Positions 56,521 through 60,160 of a stretch of 64,000 nucleotides of DNA are shown here, one piece after another. The stretch lies in the IMG/VR virus record IMGVR_UViG_3300025012_000056; one strand, written 5' to 3'. Source of the DNA: a virus. Each line of letters opens with the position of its first letter. Position 1 is the first letter of the stretch. A program made the translations under genes and the position numbers. Under the pieces are notes generated by a model. That model made no database searches. It was given only the letters and a program-made list of their open reading frames with translations, and was not told where the DNA came from.

Positions 56521-57486
56521 ATGAAAGACTATAGATTATCAGAAAACAGGTGGGAAGGTTGTAAACAATACTTTAAAGAGTATGTTGAGAGCAATGATAT
56601 AAATGTTGAGGAAATAGCAATAAAGAATTTAGTAGGATTGATTGGTTTATCCAGAGAACAAATGCTCTGGTATTCGTTTTTGTATTCAATGACTCACAAT
56701 GTCTTTTCAGCTTGGTCAATTCTTTATGAATTTCCAGAATGGAATAACATAAATATGACCAAATTTGAAAGATACTGGAAGCAAGAAAAAGTTAATTTGG
56801 AATTTACAAGCGATCGTAGGAGAGTAAAGAGTTATGATCTTCCAGGAAAAATAATAGAATCATACAGAGGGTTGATGCGAGAAGGACAAGAAGAAACACT
56901 TGGGAAGTATATTGTTGAAGACGCTAATAAGAGTTATTTGAATCTGATGAAATTTTGCGGGCAATTTTATTATTACGGGAGATATTCCATTGATTTGTAT
57001 TTAGGGAAGGCAACACACTTATTGGGATTGAACGTTGCGGGAGAAACAATTAATTTCAAAGAAGCAGAGTCAATTCGCAACGGGATGTTATATGCTCTTA
57101 ATATGAACGAATATATAACAATGCATCACCAAAAACCAATTAAAGTTCTTTCTCCAGCAGATTATGAATTATTAGATTCAAAGTTAAAGAAGTTAGTGCG
57201 AGAAGTGAATCAAGAAATGGGAAGTGAATTCTCCATTTGGGATATAGGAAGCACGCTGTGTCCATATAAAAAGTTGTTTTGGGGGGATAGGTATGTAGGA
57301 TATTATATTGACCGGCAACTTGGAGAATTAAGGCGAGCAGAAGAGAAACTGAAGAATATACCGTTTGATATGTTTTGGGAATTCAGAAAGAACTATATGA
57401 ATAATAATTATTTGGGCGAGTTGAACGGGTGGAGTGATATACGGAAGCCATTACAAAAGAAATTTCAACAAACAGGAGAATTATGA
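56521..57486 (+). CDS. Amino acid:DNA transferase-like protein (aGPT-Pplase2 clade)
   Basis: WYSFLYSMTHN, FTSDRR, YGRYSIDLY, LCPYKK...RYVGYYIDR, GWSDIR. ATG at 56521, after the terminator. Confidence 0.72.
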   Translation: MKDYRLSENRWEGCKQYFKEYVESNDINVEEIAIKNLVGLIGLSREQMLWYSFLYSMTHNVFSAWSILYEFPEWNNINMTKFERYWKQEKVNLEFTSDRRRVKSYDLPGKIIESYRGLMREGQEETLGKYIVEDANKSYLNLMKFCGQFYYYGRYSIDLYLGKATHLLGLNVAGETINFKEAESIRNGMLYALNMNEYITMHHQKPIKVLSPADYELLDSKLKKLVREVNQEMGSEFSIWDIGSTLCPYKKLFWGDRYVGYYIDRQLGELRRAEEKLKNIPFDMFWEFRKNYMNNNYLGELNGWSDIRKPLQKKFQQTGEL

Positions 57487-58124
57487 AAATATTGATCGTA
57501 CAACCGCATTCTGACGACGCATTATTGAGTTGTTATCACTTGTTTGATTCTACCAATAAAATAGTCATTCTTACAGTTGAAGACGATCAAAAAAGAATTA
57601 GTGAGGACAAACAATTACAGGATATATTTAATGATGTTGTGATTGACAATTGTAAAGATACAGTTGATGGGACATATTCAGATTATTGGAAGAAACATAA
57701 AATATTTAATTGGCGAGAAGTTTTGAAATTATATATTAAAAAATACGATTATGGGGAGTACAAACATTTGAAGTATCAATTGATAGATAAAATCACTAAA
57801 TGCAAAAACAAAGGATTCACAATATTTGTTCCTTTTGGAGCGGGGCACCCATTCCATTTGATAATTCACAAGATTTGCTATAATTTAGCTGACTATTTCT
57901 ACAGAGACTTTCCACATTCTTATAAGACACAGAGAGGGTTGAGATACTTTGAAGAGCAAAAGAACAACTATAGACTTGTATCAAGTACTGATGTAACCCC
58001 ATTTCAAGCCGAGAAGATAAGAATTTTTGGCGAGGTCTATAAAAGTCAACGAGCGTTTCAATTTTATGAAAAGAATAATTTAGAAAAATGTTATCCAGAA
58101 GAAATTTATGAAAGGATTAAATGA
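57483..58124 (+). CDS. PIG-L/LmbE-family deacetylase-like protein
   Basis: IVQPHSDDALLS, GAGHPFH, YRDFPH, K...YKSQ. Confidence 0.75.
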   Translation: MKILIVQPHSDDALLSCYHLFDSTNKIVILTVEDDQKRISEDKQLQDIFNDVVIDNCKDTVDGTYSDYWKKHKIFNWREVLKLYIKKYDYGEYKHLKYQLIDKITKCKNKGFTIFVPFGAGHPFHLIIHKICYNLADYFYRDFPHSYKTQRGLRYFEEQKNNYRLVSSTDVTPFQAEKIRIFGEVYKSQRAFQFYEKNNLEKCYPEEIYERIK

Positions 58125-58408
58125 TGGAAAATTGGTGTACTTGTAATATGATGGGAGAAGGAGGAAGTATGTCTCCCAGATTATGGATTTGTGAAAAACA
58201 TGGTAAAACAGGAATGGTTGCATTTTATAGTCTTCAAAAGAAAATAGTTGAGGATCAAAATATATCTATGGATGAGGCATGGGATATTATGAATAATATT
58301 TTTAAAAAGAAGAATGAGGAATTTAAAGCGCAAGGAAAAATATATTTTGACGAAGATTATTTATTTGATGATATTTGTAAGGAATTAAATTATGAAAAAA
58401 TTAGTTGA
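58121..58408 (+). CDS. Hypothetical protein within the modification operon
   Basis: 95 aa, CTC...ICEKHG; overlaps both neighbours. Confidence 0.5.
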   Translation: MMENWCTCNMMGEGGSMSPRLWICEKHGKTGMVAFYSLQKKIVEDQNISMDEAWDIMNNIFKKKNEEFKAQGKIYFDEDYLFDDICKELNYEKIS

Positions 58409-59333
58409 TGTTCGAACAGAGAATGTAAGACTATTTAATACTCTTTCTATTGAGACTGGTTCAAGATGTAATAGGAAGTGTAAATTTTGTTTTTGTGGTC
58501 ACTATGAGCGACCGGATGTATTGCTTGAAATGGATATACTTGTAAGAGTTTGTAAAGAATTAGGGAGTATTAATTATAATGGCTTGGTAGAGTTGCAAGG
58601 TTTTGATGAACCGATGAGAGACAAAAGAATAGAAAATATCATTAAATTATTCAAAAAATTTGTTCCCAAAAGTTCTTTGTTAATAGCAACCAATGGGGAT
58701 TATATTAAGAATAAACAAGATATTAAAAAATTGTTCAATGCAGGGCTGAATCAATTGGTTATAGATTGTTATGATCCCAATAAAGATCGTATGTTAAAAA
58801 TGGTTGAATATTGCTTTGATTTGAAAGAAAATGATTTTAAAGATTTGAATTTTGGAGGAAAAGGAATGTATAGCTCTAAAAAATCAAAAACAATTGATGT
58901 TATTGATAAAAGCCATATGCTTGAAAGAGACAACAGAAGTTTGTTTAATTATGATCACAAAGATAAAAAATATAATGATTGTCTTGCAAACAATGCCGGA
59001 GCATTATTGGGAAAAGTGACTGGTTTGGGGGAACCAAATCAAAATAAGTATTGTGTGTTACCTTTCAGGAAAGCTACAATAGCTTATACAGGTATGTTAA
59101 CACTTTGTTGCCAACATGCTACAGGAGAAGTTAATTTTGGTGATTTAAGAAAAAATACTTTAATTGAATGTTGGAACAGTGACATCGCTAATGAGTATAG
59201 ATTGTTTTTACAAAATAATATGAGAAAAAATCTTAAAGGTTGTGAGAATTGTAGTTTCTTTGGGGGATTTTATCCACATATGATTACCAAAGTTACTTTT
59301 GGAGAAGAAATGGATGAGAAATTATTATCATGA
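58392..59333 (+). CDS. Radical SAM enzyme with SPASM/twitch domain
   Basis: CNRKCKFC (CX3CX2C), GFDEP, ATNG; C-terminal CVLPF...LCCQ...FGDL...CENC. Confidence 0.9.
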   Translation: MKKLVDVRTENVRLFNTLSIETGSRCNRKCKFCFCGHYERPDVLLEMDILVRVCKELGSINYNGLVELQGFDEPMRDKRIENIIKLFKKFVPKSSLLIATNGDYIKNKQDIKKLFNAGLNQLVIDCYDPNKDRMLKMVEYCFDLKENDFKDLNFGGKGMYSSKKSKTIDVIDKSHMLERDNRSLFNYDHKDKKYNDCLANNAGALLGKVTGLGEPNQNKYCVLPFRKATIAYTGMLTLCCQHATGEVNFGDLRKNTLIECWNSDIANEYRLFLQNNMRKNLKGCENCSFFGGFYPHMITKVTFGEEMDEKLLS

Positions 59334-60160
59334 AGATTTTAATTGCAGTCCCAAGTAAGAATCGTTGGAGAGATAATCAAATTCAGCGAAAAACATTAGC
59401 GTGGCTTCAATACACAAAATATGACTACGCAATCTTTGTAGAACCACAAGATTTACAAAATTATGTTAACAATATCCCTCAGAATATGGAGATTAGACAT
59501 CAGACTTTTGTTAATATAAAAGAGAATAATAAGGGAATGGGATATTGCAAGTTGATGATTCAGAAATATGCTCAAGAAAACAAATACGACTATATATTTA
59601 AGGCTGATGATGACATAATAGGTTGGAGAGACCCAGCGAATCGGGGATTGGGCCATAATGCTCCAAAGAGATCCAAAGAGTATCGTTGTAAAGAGATATT
59701 TGATCCAATGATTGACAAGTCTTTGGAGATGTTTAAAGAACTTGGAGAATATGTTGGGGGAGTCACCCTTCAGTATGGGAATGAAATGCGAGACTATGAT
59801 CCTGAAAAACCATGGATAGGAATAAACAAAAGATTACAATGTTGTTATATAGTGAGAACGGATTTGTTATGTCAGAGAGATGTAGAACATTTTAGTTTAT
59901 TTGAAGATTTTATGACTTTTGTTCATTTGATTAAAAGTGGTTATAAGACCATAACATATGGATTAACAGGAATAGAATATGATGGAATTGCTAATAGAGA
60001 AGGTGGTTTTCAAGATGTTGAAAGAATTAAAGGGAGTCTCCATACGATGATTATGGCGAAGAAAATATATCCTGATTTAATATGGAAGAAAGTGAATAAG
60101 CCATGGAAGTTTGAACCGGATTTTGCAAAAACAAAATTTATAGAAAGGATAAAAATATGA
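59330..60160 (+). CDS. GT-A glycosyltransferase, TAGT/JGT/GREB1-like
   Basis: IAVPSKNR, IFVEPQD..NY, NKGMG, YIFKADDD, FED, EGG. Confidence 0.68.
   Translation: MKILIAVPSKNRWRDNQIQRKTLAWLQYTKYDYAIFVEPQDLQNYVNNIPQNMEIRHQTFVNIKENNKGMGYCKLMIQKYAQENKYDYIFKADDDIIGWRDPANRGLGHNAPKRSKEYRCKEIFDPMIDKSLEMFKELGEYVGGVTLQYGNEMRDYDPEKPWIGINKRLQCCYIVRTDLLCQRDVEHFSLFEDFMTFVHLIKSGYKTITYGLTGIEYDGIANREGGFQDVERIKGSLHTMIMAKKIYPDLIWKKVNKPWKFEPDFAKTKFIERIKI

What the first reader, a model, noticed from the sequence alone, without database searches (positions are those of the whole stretch)
57483..60160. Possible add-GlcNAc-then-deacetylate route to a cationic sugar base
Seen: a PIG-L-like deacetylase (PHSDD/HPFH) and a TAGT-like GT-A enzyme lie in the same operon. 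Established: PIG-L enzymes remove acetyl from N-acetylglucosaminyl conjugates, and JGT glucosylates hmU to form base J. Inference: an N-acetyl sugar could be added to the hmU hydroxyl and then deacetylated to an amino sugar, giving a positively charged base-J analogue that blocks nucleases and may aid packaging. The rSAM enzyme could further modify the sugar.
Basis: inference. Interest (0 to 1): 0.78.

Follow-up and report, generated by a model that had tools for sequence, protein, structure and literature searches.

The report
Phage DNA sugar-adding and deacetylating enzyme pair
An uncultured groundwater phage keeps a sugar-adding enzyme, a deacetylase of the kind that turns N-acetylglucosamine into glucosamine, and a radical enzyme inside its thymine-modification operon. 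These three are fused or adjacent in many other phages, so they most likely build an amino sugar on the phage DNA, a DNA modification that the literature I searched does not describe.

Summary
Window 57483-58124 encodes a remote but genuine LmbE/PIG-L-fold protein. Its metal-binding signature (H9-S10-D11-D12 plus H125) is intact and invariant in 28 homologs. Window 59330-60160 encodes a TAGT-family GT-A glycosyltransferase with an invariant DDD motif. Both lie in one chain of seven overlapping genes: ADDT, PIG-L-like, a 95-aa ORF, a BtrN-like radical SAM, TAGT, a 117-aa ORF and HMUDK_hel. A P-loop kinase lies upstream. A thymidylate-synthase homolog with a dUMP-type Asn lies elsewhere in the window.

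Comparative data tie the deacetylase to a glycosyltransferase. In 56 of 56 informative IMG/VR loci the PIG-L gene is followed by a GT-B-like gene or fused to TAGT. Fusions exist in several forms: PIG-L::TAGT, TAGT::PIG-L, rSAM::PIG-L and, among remote superfamily members, PIG-L::GT-B. One PIG-L::TAGT fusion sits between ParB and a Tet/JBP dioxygenase. Complete relatives carry the pair without a detectable ADDT or kinase.

My best reading (confidence about 0.55) is that a HexNAc is put on 5-hydroxymethyluracil in DNA, is then de-N-acetylated to a hexosamine, and is further oxidised by the radical SAM enzyme. The sugar, the acceptor and the product are inferred, not shown. I found no report of such a deacetylation step. 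I rate it a new variant of DNA glycosylation.

The parts
12451..13665 (+). Thymidylate-synthase homolog (404 aa). It is the candidate dUMP hydroxymethylase that would supply 5-hmdU.
   Evidence: Pfam Thymidylat_synt, E 2e-20. The best PDB hit is the CMP hydroxymethylase MilA. The catalytic Cys is present, and an Asn sits where TS has the uracil-specifying Asn and MilA has Asp. It is conserved at 45-52% identity in complete relatives. Whether it is a hydroxymethylase or a methylase is not resolved.
17305..17940 (+). HD / YfbR-like 5'-deoxynucleotidase, directly after the DNA polymerase gene.
   Evidence: Pfam YfbR-like, E 3.5e-11. It is syntenic in relatives. The same gene type has been noted beside TS and aGPT-Pplase1 in pelagiphages.
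55479..56093 (+). P-loop kinase (204 aa). It is the kinase half of a split 5-hmdU DNA kinase.
   Evidence: It has a Walker A motif (GGNCTGKT). It matches the N-terminal part of phrog_800, whose C-terminal part matches 60488-61435. It is 27% identical (E 4e-13) to the P-loop gene that lies directly before HMUDK_hel in L092.
56481..56516 (+). Terminator-like hairpin with a T tract, just before the ADDT start.
   Evidence: Consensus scan: 11-pair stem with 5 GC pairs. This is a pattern match only.
56521..57486 (+). ADDT / aGPT-Pplase2, an amino acid:DNA transferase (321 aa from the ATG; the ORF listing extends it to a GTG at 56497).
   Evidence: Pfam PF18724, 28.2 bits against a cut-off of 26.2. 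Gene callers start it at the ATG. It shows 25-26% identity over 93-99% of its length to proteins of Salmonella, Klebsiella, Serratia, Dickeya, Erwinia and Vibrio phages.
57483..58124 (+). LmbE/PIG-L-fold metallohydrolase (213 aa), the predicted de-N-acetylase.
   Evidence: HXDD+H motif with a 112-residue spacer, pLDDT 96, and best fold matches that are all LmbE-type deacetylases.
58121..58408 (+). 95-aa ORF of unknown function, specific to this phage.
   Evidence: It was called as a gene in the metagenome records. It is absent from the otherwise identical cluster in L005. It has no family or Atlas lead.
58392..59333 (+). BtrN-like radical SAM enzyme with an auxiliary-cluster (SPASM/twitch) domain (313 aa).
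   Evidence: Pfam Radical_SAM plus SPASM. It has the CNRKCKFC motif. Its only strong PDB hit is BtrN (E 7e-17), with both domains aligned. The family profile hits BtrN at 1e-24; the next radical SAM enzyme scores 5e-8.
59330..60160 (+). TAGT-family GT-A glycosyltransferase (276 aa).
   Evidence: PF20691, E 3.8e-10, and phrog_842. All but one of 33 homologs carry PF20691. R12, D93-D95, Y173, D193 and G225-G226 are invariant. The model (pLDDT 93) matches GT-A enzymes such as GnT-I, SpsA, TarS and TarP.
60157..60510 (+). 117-aa ORF of unknown function, specific to this phage.
   Evidence: It is absent from L005.
60488..61435 (+). HMUDK_hel / aGPT-Pplase1 helical domain protein (315 aa), with no kinase domain.
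   Evidence: PF18723, E 1e-57. Homologs occur in the 5-hmdU DNA kinases of PaMx11 and SP-10. It lies just upstream of the portal gene, as in all relatives.

Best explanation
The locus is a composite thymidine-hypermodification operon of a roughly 98-kb uncultured groundwater phage.

Step 1. The phage replaces part of its T with 5-hydroxymethyl-dU. The evidence is a TS homolog with uracil-type specificity and an HD deoxynucleotidase. This step is inferred.

Step 2. The TAGT GT-A enzyme transfers an N-acetylhexosamine, probably GlcNAc from a UDP-sugar, onto the hydroxymethyl group of hmU in DNA. The neighbouring HMUDK_hel helical protein probably helps by recognising or presenting the base. This step is inferred.

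Step 3. The LmbE/PIG-L-fold enzyme uses its His-Asp-His metal site and Asp general base to hydrolyse the N-acetyl group. That leaves a hexosamine with a free primary amine on the base. This step is inferred from family precedent and from the gene fusions.

Step 4. The BtrN-like radical SAM enzyme then tailors that amino sugar. By analogy with BtrN, it would oxidise a secondary alcohol to a ketone. This step is inferred.

In parallel, or on remaining hmU, the split P-loop kinase and HMUDK_hel phosphorylate hmU and the ADDT substitutes an amino acid or amine, as in the known pathways. The end result would be DNA that carries amine-bearing bulky groups in the major groove. In characterised phages such groups protect DNA from host nucleases.

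What is shown: gene content, folds, catalytic motifs, operon structure, and the conserved coupling and fusions.

What is not shown: any chemistry.
For: Fold and active site of the deacetylase:
- HXDD+H motif with a 112-residue spacer (the published range is 97-148). The residues are invariant in 28 homologs and align to the Dbv21 metal ligands and general base.
- The AlphaFold model has pLDDT 96, and its top Foldseek hits are all LmbE-type deacetylases.
- All characterised LmbE enzymes hydrolyse GlcNAc or N-acyl-GlcN conjugates that were made by a preceding glycosyltransferase (PMC4101496).

Coupling to a glycosyltransferase:
- Of 58 IMG/VR loci, 52 have a GT-B-like gene just downstream, 4 have PIG-L fused to a full-length TAGT domain, and 2 are cut by the contig end.
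- Further fusions are PIG-L::TAGT (P0066), TAGT::PIG-L (P0172) and rSAM::PIG-L (P0067).
- The PIG-L::TAGT fusion arose at least twice on the PIG-L tree. The window's protein is sister to the main fused clade, with support 92/81.

DNA as the substrate:
- TAGT family membership.
- In L061, an unrelated phage, the order is ParB_N, PIG-L::TAGT, Tet_JBP, then the terminase genes.
- L096 carries the fusion within 2 kb of ThyX and among DNA-metabolism genes. L088 carries the homolog one gene from PolB.
- In the window the pair lies between ADDT and HMUDK_hel.
- The nearest Atlas clusters to the GT-B partner include T4-type DNA alpha-glucosyltransferase (a lead only).

Independence from ADDT and kinase:
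- Three relatives at least 90% complete (G003 and G004 at 100% with terminal repeats, G005 at 91%) have the TS homolog, HMUDK_hel, and either PIG-L+GT-B (seen in G003 and G004) or rSAM+PIG-L::TAGT (G005). They have no detectable ADDT or HMUDK-type P-loop.
- HMUDK_hel without a kinase also sits directly after two GT genes and a TS gene in the cultured Brevibacterium phage LuckyBarnes.

Precedent and radical SAM enzyme:
- Phage GT-A enzymes are known to put HexNAc on 5hmC (Pyle et al.).
- The radical SAM family matches BtrN 17 orders of magnitude better than any other solved radical SAM enzyme.
Against: - No biochemical or mass-spectrometry data exist, and the phage is uncultured.
- The window protein itself fails the Pfam PIG-L cut-off.
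- The family has a hydrophobic residue (F124) where canonical enzymes have the Asp of HPDH, so catalysis may differ.
- The LmbE fold also includes a non-deacetylase, the hydratase GalB, which appears in the fold hits.
- In most relatives the PIG-L/GT module sits in the head-gene block, next to a conserved ~310-aa protein between the portal and capsid genes. That position is also compatible with a non-DNA substrate.
- The GT-B partner has only weak sequence support as a GT.
- In this phage, L005 and L092, TAGT is tightly linked to ADDT, so the acceptor could be the amino-acid adduct.
- A TAGT-family member in T6-like phages is thought to glycosylate a sugar, not the base.
- The absence of ADDT and kinase in relatives rests on searches that had no positive control in those records.
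Confidence: 0.55

Rival explanations
1. The glycosyltransferase does not act on the hmU hydroxyl. It acts on the product of the kinase/ADDT branch, for example a hydroxyl of a serine- or threonine-type adduct, or on a sugar placed by another enzyme. The PIG-L enzyme then deacetylates that. The product would be a glyco-amino-acid base, not a base-J analogue.
For: The ADDT stop overlaps the PIG-L start. The whole set is one overlapping gene chain here and in L005. The closest TAGT homolog on a long contig (46% identity, L092) lies between ADDT and the kinase/HMUDK_hel pair. The window's ADDT is nearest to proteins of Salmonella, Klebsiella, Dickeya, Serratia and Erwinia phages; from memory, ViI-like phages, whose ADDT transfers serine, infect these hosts. 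A TAGT in T6-like phages is thought to add a second sugar onto glucosyl-hmC.
Against: Relatives carry GT, PIG-L and in some cases the rSAM together with the TS homolog and HMUDK_hel, but with no detectable ADDT or kinase. PIG-L::TAGT next to Tet_JBP needs no ADDT. So the pair has a substrate that exists without amino-acid transfer.
Confidence: 0.2
2. The GT / PIG-L / radical SAM trio does not modify DNA. It would glycosylate a virion protein or a host envelope component, or it would build a small aminoglycoside-like molecule. Its place in this operon would be a moron-type insertion.
For: In about 50 relatives the module lies in the head-gene block, after a conserved ~310-aa protein and before capsid genes. 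The three enzyme types correspond to BtrM/BtrD/BtrN of butirosin biosynthesis (the BtrM part is from memory). The window also has a separate sugar-type cluster at 43-51 kb.
Against: TAGT is a family defined by its association with DNA-base oxygenases. PIG-L::TAGT lies between ParB and Tet_JBP in L061. TAGT::PIG-L lies near ThyX in L096. A homolog lies one gene from PolB in L088. In the window and L005 the module is enclosed by ADDT and HMUDK_hel. Every genome that was searched for it (G003, G004, G005 and the window phage) has a TS homolog and HMUDK_hel.
Confidence: 0.12
3. The PIG-L-fold protein is not a sugar de-N-acetylase. It would be an amidase or esterase acting on an acylated amine of the amino-acid branch, or a non-hydrolytic or inactive member of the fold.
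For: The canonical Asp of HPDH is replaced by Phe or another hydrophobic residue throughout the family. The window protein is below the Pfam threshold. The LmbE fold includes the hydratase GalB. Known T-hypermodification pathways include acetyltransferases (PaMx11 gp48), so an N-acetyl amine could exist. A hexapeptide acyltransferase gene is in the window.
Against: The metal ligands and general base are invariant. The gene is never found without a neighbouring or fused GT where the sequence allows a check, apart from L088/L089 where the neighbour has no family match. It occurs where no ADDT is detectable.
Confidence: 0.1

Closest known systems
GT-then-LmbE pairs of small-molecule pathways: MshA/MshB (mycothiol), BshA/BshB (bacillithiol), PIG-A/PIG-L (GPI anchor), BtrM/BtrD (butirosin), and the teicoplanin GT with Orf2*
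   Same: The logic is the same: a glycosyltransferase adds GlcNAc to an acceptor, and an LmbE-fold zinc hydrolase with an HXDD+H site then frees the 2-amino group (PMC4101496). The best structural matches of the window protein are Orf2*/Dbv21, MshB and BshB. As in butirosin biosynthesis, a BtrN-type radical SAM enzyme is part of the set.
   Different: The acceptor here would be a base in double-stranded DNA, not a lipid, cyclitol, malate or glycopeptide. The partner GT is TAGT (GT-A) in this phage. The protein is short (213 aa), falls below the Pfam threshold, and lacks the Asp of HPDH. The names of the partner GTs are from memory.
Phage 5hmC/5hmU sugar hypermodification by 5mYOX- or TS-associated glycosyltransferases (Burke 2021; Pyle, Lund, O'Toole, Saleh 2023/2024), and base J (JBP + JGT)
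   Same: A hydroxymethylpyrimidine in DNA is glycosylated after replication by a GT-A or GT-B enzyme. HexNAc and di-HexNAc on 5hmC have been demonstrated. One PIG-L::TAGT fusion sits in a ParB/Tet_JBP cluster of this type.
   Different: I found no de-N-acetylase or radical SAM step in those papers. Here the precursor comes from a TS homolog, not a dioxygenase. The GT is embedded in an ADDT/kinase operon.
Thymidine hypermodification pathways of M6, ViI, PaMx11, SP10 and PhiW-14 (Lee et al. 2018, 2022)
   Same: The components match: a 5-hmdU DNA kinase (P-loop plus helical domain), an aGPT-Pplase2/ADDT, a TS homolog, a radical SAM gene inside the cluster, and end products that carry primary amines.
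   Different: The kinase is split into two genes 4.4 kb apart. The radical SAM enzyme is BtrN-like with an auxiliary cluster, whereas M6 gp53 is spore-photoproduct-lyase-like. A GT and an LmbE hydrolase are added. No PLP decarboxylase or flavin lyase was found among the operon proteins scanned.
Oligosaccharide-modified thymidine of SP-15, YerA41 and Carin-5
   Same: These are thymidine adducts that carry sugars, possibly GlcNAc. The Carin-5 gene block includes a gene annotated as 'polysaccharide deacetylase', with HHpred similarity to a GlcNAc N-deacetylase; it has not been tested.
   Different: The chemistry differs (a dihydroxypentyl linker with phosphate). The phage lineage differs. The Carin-5 deacetylase is annotated under another family name, and no 5-HMUDK or ADDT genes are mentioned in the passages I read.

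Membership tests
LmbE-like / PIG-L superfamily (PF02585) | Single alpha/beta Rossmann-like domain resembling solved LmbE enzymes | tested here: met
   The AlphaFold model has pLDDT 96. Foldseek hits 1-8 are Orf2*/Dbv21 (E 2e-6 to 6e-5, TM about 0.6), followed by diacetylchitobiose deacetylases, MshB, TT1542 and BshB.
LmbE-like / PIG-L superfamily (PF02585) | HXD1D2 + H metal-binding motif, with 97-148 residues between ligands 2 and 3 | tested here: met
   H9-S10-D11-D12 and H125, with a spacer of 112. These residues are invariant in 28 homologs. They align to Dbv21 H16/D18/D19/H161. 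The definition is from PMC4101496.
LmbE-like / PIG-L superfamily (PF02585) | Score above the Pfam gathering threshold | tested here: not met
   The window protein scores 12.3 bits against 28.2, and the best family member reaches only E 1e-4. More distant proteins found with the family profile do pass PF02585 (P0160, P0181, P0183, P0204). Membership therefore rests on transitive and structural evidence.
LmbE-like / PIG-L superfamily (PF02585) | Second-shell Asp of the HPDH motif | tested here: not met
   The motif is GHPFH in the window. That position is F, M, T, V or Y across the family. Its role in canonical enzymes is recalled from memory.
LmbE-like / PIG-L superfamily (PF02585) | Metal-dependent hydrolysis of the N-acyl group of a GlcNAc / N-acyl-GlcN conjugate | not testable with these tools
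   This needs an enzyme assay.
TAGT (PF20691) DNA-base-associated GT-A glycosyltransferases | Pfam match above threshold | tested here: met
   40.5 bits against 27.5, although only residues 5-111 align. phrog_842 covers residues 3-255. Of 33 homologs, 32 carry PF20691.
TAGT (PF20691) DNA-base-associated GT-A glycosyltransferases | GT-A fold with a DxD motif | tested here: met
   D93-D94-D95 are invariant in 23 sequences, including the fused forms. The model has pLDDT 93, and Foldseek hits GnT-I, SpsA, TarS, TarP and the LH3 GT domain.
TAGT (PF20691) DNA-base-associated GT-A glycosyltransferases | Genomic association with an enzyme that makes a hydroxymethylpyrimidine | tested here: met
   A TS homolog is in the window. 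Homologs sit next to Tet_JBP (L091; L061).
TAGT (PF20691) DNA-base-associated GT-A glycosyltransferases | Sugar transfer to a base, or to a base-linked sugar, in DNA | not testable with these tools
   This needs an assay on hmU-DNA.
5-hmdU kinase / amino acid:DNA transferase thymidine hypermodification system | 5-HMUDK: P-loop kinase plus helical (PF18723) domain | tested here: met
   Both parts are present but as separate genes at 55479-56093 and 60488-61435. They match the N- and C-terminal parts of phrog_800. PF18723 scores E 1e-57. L092 has them as adjacent genes.
5-hmdU kinase / amino acid:DNA transferase thymidine hypermodification system | aGPT-Pplase2 / ADDT (PF18724) | tested here: met
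   28.2 bits against 26.2. It has full-length, 25-26% identical relatives in Salmonella, Klebsiella, Serratia, Dickeya and Erwinia phages.
5-hmdU kinase / amino acid:DNA transferase thymidine hypermodification system | A source of 5-hmdU (dUMP hydroxymethylase or T-dioxygenase) | tested here: inconclusive
   A TS homolog with the catalytic Cys and a uracil-type Asn is present. Hydroxymethylase and methylase cannot be told apart from sequence here.
BtrN-type radical SAM dehydrogenases | CX3CX2C radical SAM cluster plus a C-terminal auxiliary [4Fe-4S] domain, with full-length similarity to BtrN | tested here: met
   The CNRKCKFC motif is present. Pfam finds Radical_SAM plus SPASM. BtrN aligns over 12-127 and 194-288. 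The family profile scores E 1e-24 against 5e-8 for the next enzyme.
BtrN-type radical SAM dehydrogenases | SAM-dependent oxidation of a secondary alcohol on an amino-cyclitol or amino sugar | not testable with these tools
   BtrN's activity is established knowledge. The activity here is inferred.

The most novel reading that the evidence does not exclude
A three-enzyme tailoring line borrowed from aminoglycoside-type chemistry works on DNA-bound sugars in a large lineage of ~100-kb phages and in unrelated phages. The line is a glycosyltransferase, then an LmbE de-N-acetylase, then a BtrN-like radical SAM dehydrogenase. It would produce hexosaminyl, and possibly keto- or diamino-sugar, derivatives of 5-hydroxymethyluracil. 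These would be the first LmbE-fold and BtrN-type enzymes with a nucleic-acid substrate. In this phage the line would be merged with amino-acid transfer to give a dual or composite thymine hypermodification. The kinase-less HMUDK_hel protein would serve as a shared hmU-presenting module for both the kinase and the GT.
Probability: 0.35. Interest if true: 0.85.

Novelty: new variant of a known kind. Interest (0 to 1): 0.72.

Why it matters
Sugar-modified and amine-modified bases are the two main ways phages hide their DNA from restriction enzymes and CRISPR nucleases. An amino sugar would combine both in one group.

If confirmed, this would:
- add a new class of natural DNA modification (hexosaminyl-hmU);
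- extend the LmbE/PIG-L and BtrN enzyme families to a DNA substrate;
- explain a gene pair that is conserved or fused in at least 58 IMG/VR contigs and forms 33 sequence clusters (50% identity) at E <= 1e-30 in the profile search;
- offer enzymes that place a free, chemically addressable amine on DNA.

It is directly testable with synthetic genes and hmU-containing DNA.

Tried and rejected
- Megablast of the locus, and tblastn of the PIG-L protein, against cultured phages found nothing. The TAGT gave only a weak partial hit, to Nonlabens phage P12024L.
- No whole genome is held for the window.
- Single-sequence Pfam, NCBIfam and PHROG scans did not name the 213-aa protein, apart from a weak hit to a PHROG of unknown function. 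The assignment needed the family profile and the fold.
- I tested whether the gene upstream of PIG-L in relatives is a diverged ADDT. It is not. It is a conserved ~310-aa protein of the portal-to-capsid gene block with no Pfam match.
- I tested whether the 216-aa gene in L092 is a PIG-L homolog. It is not; it is the P-loop kinase.
- A profile of the GT-B partner against PDB sequences gave nothing. Its GT status rests on weak Pfam hits and language-model neighbours.
- Complex prediction on TAGT plus PIG-L returned no verdict, with a score of 0.00.
- Atlas searches for the 95-aa and 117-aa ORFs gave no usable lead.
- Extra Pfam scans of the window for an NDP-sugar dehydratase or other donor-pathway genes found none among the ORFs tested.
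- Iyer et al. 2013 (the source of TAGT and 5-HMUDK) is not held, so I could not check whether it mentions an LmbE partner.

Full report
**What the window is.** All long ORFs lie on the + strand and GC is about 32%. The window encodes a helicase, a DnaB-like helicase, a large DNA polymerase, RecA-like and SbcCD-like proteins, a terminase and a portal protein. The same sequence occurs on groundwater metagenome contigs of up to about 98.5 kb. No cultured phage is close and no whole genome is held. It is an uncultured tailed phage.

**The observation.** ORF 57483-58124 (213 aa) has PHSDD at residues 8-12 and GHPFH at residues 121-125. ORF 59330-60160 (276 aa) matches Pfam TAGT above its threshold.

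The 213-aa protein alone is not recognised by Pfam. A search of 5.8 billion proteins found 27 homologs. In their alignment P8, H9, D11, D12, G121, H122, P123, H125 and a YRDFPH block are invariant. Of the 28 members, 26 give weak PF02585 hits. The family profile hits the LmbE-type deacetylase Dbv21, with H9/D11/D12/H125 aligned to its H16/D18/D19/H161. According to the LmbE superfamily review, those residues are the two His and one Asp metal ligands and the Asp general base. The defining motif is HXDD+H with a 97-148-residue spacer, and here the spacer is 112.

The AlphaFold model is confident (pLDDT 96). Its best structural matches are exclusively LmbE-type enzymes: Orf2*, Dbv21, diacetylchitobiose deacetylase, MshB, BshB and TT1542. 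A profile search of 1.84 billion representatives found 33 clusters at E <= 1e-30 and 1073 at E <= 1e-3. Several of the more distant hits pass PF02585 outright. The fold and the active-site signature are therefore real. The Asp of the canonical HPDH is replaced by a hydrophobic residue throughout this clade.

The GT has an invariant DDD motif and a GT-A fold.

**The operon.**
- From ATG 56521 to 61435, seven ORFs overlap each other by 4-23 bases. In order they are ADDT (PF18724), the PIG-L-like protein, a 95-aa ORF, a radical SAM/SPASM enzyme, TAGT, a 117-aa ORF and HMUDK_hel (PF18723, E 1e-57).
- A terminator-like hairpin precedes the ADDT start.
- Upstream lie an ATP-dependent DNA ligase gene and a 204-aa P-loop kinase gene.
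- The kinase and HMUDK_hel match the two halves of one PHROG profile. They are therefore a split 5-hmdU DNA kinase. In L092 the two parts are adjacent genes.
- Elsewhere in the window there is a thymidylate-synthase homolog. Its best solved relative is a CMP hydroxymethylase, but it carries the uracil-type Asn. It is followed by the polymerase gene and an HD 5'-deoxynucleotidase gene.
- This is the gene set of the thymidine-hypermodification pathways of Lee et al., with three additions: a GT, an LmbE-fold hydrolase and a different kind of radical SAM enzyme.

**Related loci.**
- A second contig, with a 50%-identical PIG-L protein, has the same core order and lacks the two small ORFs: ADDT, PIG-L, rSAM, TAGT, HMUDK_hel, portal.
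- A scan of IMG/VR returned 58 loci. Most belong to the same ~100-kb phage lineage; two fully fetched members are syntenic with the window, and their portal, polymerase and terminase proteins are 41-49% identical.
- In those loci HMUDK_hel again precedes the portal gene, but the PIG-L gene lies about 6 kb downstream of the portal gene.
- In 52 loci it is followed by a conserved 470-490-aa protein. That protein has weak GT4/GT5 Pfam hits and a GT-B-like C-terminal motif. Its language-model neighbours are viral Glycos_transf_1 clusters and DNA alpha-glucosyltransferase clusters.
- In 4 loci the PIG-L domain is fused to a complete TAGT domain. The remaining 2 loci end at the gene.
- In 11 loci a homolog of the radical SAM gene lies directly or closely upstream of the PIG-L gene.
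- The profile search added a TAGT::PIG-L fusion, an rSAM::PIG-L fusion and, among remote superfamily members, PIG-L::GT-B fusions.
- On a tree of the PIG-L domains the fusion to TAGT arose at least twice. The window's protein groups with the main fused clade.
- The deacetylase-like protein is thus tied to a glycosyltransferase of either fold, and to the radical SAM enzyme, by adjacency and by pairwise fusion.

**Is the substrate DNA?** Four lines of evidence point that way.
1. TAGT is a family defined by association with DNA-base oxygenases. Window-type TAGT homologs sit next to Tet_JBP (L091) or next to ADDT and the kinase (L092).
2. L061 comes from an unrelated phage with a different terminase type. 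Its order is ParB_N, PIG-L::TAGT, Tet_JBP, then the small and large terminase genes. That is the layout of the published 5mYOX/GT DNA hypermodification clusters.
3. Other homologs lie within 2 kb of ThyX and among DNA-metabolism genes (L096) or one gene from a B-family polymerase (L088).
4. In the window and in L005 the genes are enclosed by ADDT and HMUDK_hel.

Against this, in most relatives the module lies among head genes. That is where phage morons often sit, but it leaves room for a non-DNA target.

**Which acceptor?** Three relatives at least 90% complete (two of them complete, with terminal repeats) have the TS homolog, HMUDK_hel, and either PIG-L+GT-B or rSAM+PIG-L::TAGT. Searches with the Pfam model, with the window proteins and with phrog_800 found no ADDT and no HMUDK-type P-loop in them. 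The caveat is that those searches had no positive control in those records.

A kinase-less HMUDK_hel directly following two GT genes and a TS gene is also seen in the cultured Brevibacterium phage LuckyBarnes. The combination of TS, aGPT-Pplase1, deoxynucleotidase and GT has been noted in pelagiphages. This suggests two things. First, the GT/PIG-L pair needs only hmU-DNA. Second, the helical protein is an hmU-recognition module used by both kinase and GT. Both points are inference.

The alternative is that in this phage the GT decorates the amino-acid adduct or a first sugar. The tight ADDT-PIG-L coupling keeps that alternative open. So does the T6-type TAGT, which is thought to glycosylate a sugar.

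**The radical SAM enzyme.** Its only strong solved relative is BtrN, and both the core and the auxiliary-cluster domain align. A profile of 11 family members scores BtrN at 1e-24, against 5e-8 for the next radical SAM enzyme. From established knowledge, BtrN oxidises a secondary alcohol of an aminocyclitol in butirosin biosynthesis. In the same pathway the LmbE enzyme BtrD deacetylates 2'-N-acetylparomamine. The phage trio therefore resembles GlcNAc transfer, deacetylation and radical oxidation in aminoglycoside assembly. It is unlike M6 gp53, which is related to spore-photoproduct lyase.

**Mechanism proposed.** hmU is incorporated into DNA. TAGT adds a HexNAc to its hydroxymethyl group. The LmbE-fold enzyme removes the acetyl group to expose an amine. 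The BtrN-like enzyme oxidises the sugar. The kinase and ADDT install an amino acid or amine on other hmU residues, or possibly on the same pathway. Only the gene content, folds, motifs and linkage are shown. All the chemistry is inferred. My confidence is about 0.55. The rivals are an amino-acid-adduct acceptor (0.2), a non-DNA substrate (0.12) and a non-deacetylase role (0.1).

**Comparison with what is known, and novelty.** HexNAc on 5hmC made by phage GT-A enzymes is known. Amine-bearing thymidine hypermodifications are known. A gene annotated as 'polysaccharide deacetylase' has been noted, untested, in the sugar gene block of phage Carin-5. I found no mention of an LmbE/PIG-L enzyme, or of any de-N-acetylation step, in the DNA-hypermodification papers that I could search. 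The founding comparative paper (Iyer et al. 2013) is not held, so prior computational notice cannot be excluded. I rate this a new variant of a known kind of system, DNA base glycosylation, with two new tailoring enzymes.

**Verdict.** Interest is 0.72.

Noticed in passing
window 43098-51525: A cluster of sugar-type genes: SAM methyltransferases (43098, 46697, 47316, 47945), a TOD1/MUCI70-like GT (43730), a Glyco_trans_1_2 protein (44337), a short DegT/PseC-like aminotransferase (48715-49353, only 212 aa) and a Stealth_CR2 protein (50788). The region from about 42.7 to 57.5 kb has no counterpart in the syntenic relatives G3 and G5. It could supply or further decorate the sugar donor, or serve another glycan.
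   Followed up: partly
window 10303-10968: A hexapeptide-repeat acyl/acetyltransferase (LpxD/LpxA/NeuD-like). It is absent from relatives G3 and G5. It could re-acylate a freed sugar amine or act on an NDP-amino sugar.
   Followed up: partly
window 55479-56093 and 60488-61435: The 5-hmdU DNA kinase is split into a P-loop gene and a helical-domain gene, separated by 4.4 kb of modification genes. In L092 the two parts are adjacent separate genes.
   Followed up: yes
G003, G004, G005 (L084-L086); L093 (Brevibacterium phage LuckyBarnes) 1840-5855: A stand-alone HMUDK_hel (aGPT-Pplase1) occurs without any detectable kinase, next to or near glycosyltransferases and a TS homolog. This hints that the helical protein has a kinase-independent role, for example presenting hmU to a GT.
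   Followed up: partly
L095 2687-4291; L096 6001-7410; L041 7661-11162: There is an rSAM::PIG-L fusion (P0067) followed by a 475-aa gene the size of the GT-B partner. There is a TAGT::PIG-L fusion in the reverse domain order (P0172) near ThyX. One locus has radical SAM genes on both sides of a PIG-L::TAGT fusion.
   Followed up: partly
window 58121-58408 and 60157-60510: Two small ORFs (95 and 117 aa) are wedged into the operon. They have no detectable relatives and are absent from the otherwise identical cluster in L005. The 95-aa ORF has several Cys and His residues near its N-terminus.
   Followed up: partly
window 53469-54125 and 54147-55478: A protein with a bacterial-surface Ig-like domain and an ATP-dependent DNA ligase lie directly upstream of the kinase gene.
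   Followed up: no
L008 18386-20642 (downstream of the window); L005 11040-11669: A protein of more than 1000 aa, a few genes after the portal gene, carries NUDIX hits. In L008 it also carries a Topoisom_I hit. This is an unusual combination.
   Followed up: no
L090 14256-14825; L088 2237-5511: Intein-type domains are annotated in a portal gene (L090) and in a B-family DNA polymerase (L088) of phages carrying TAGT or the PIG-L homolog.
   Followed up: no
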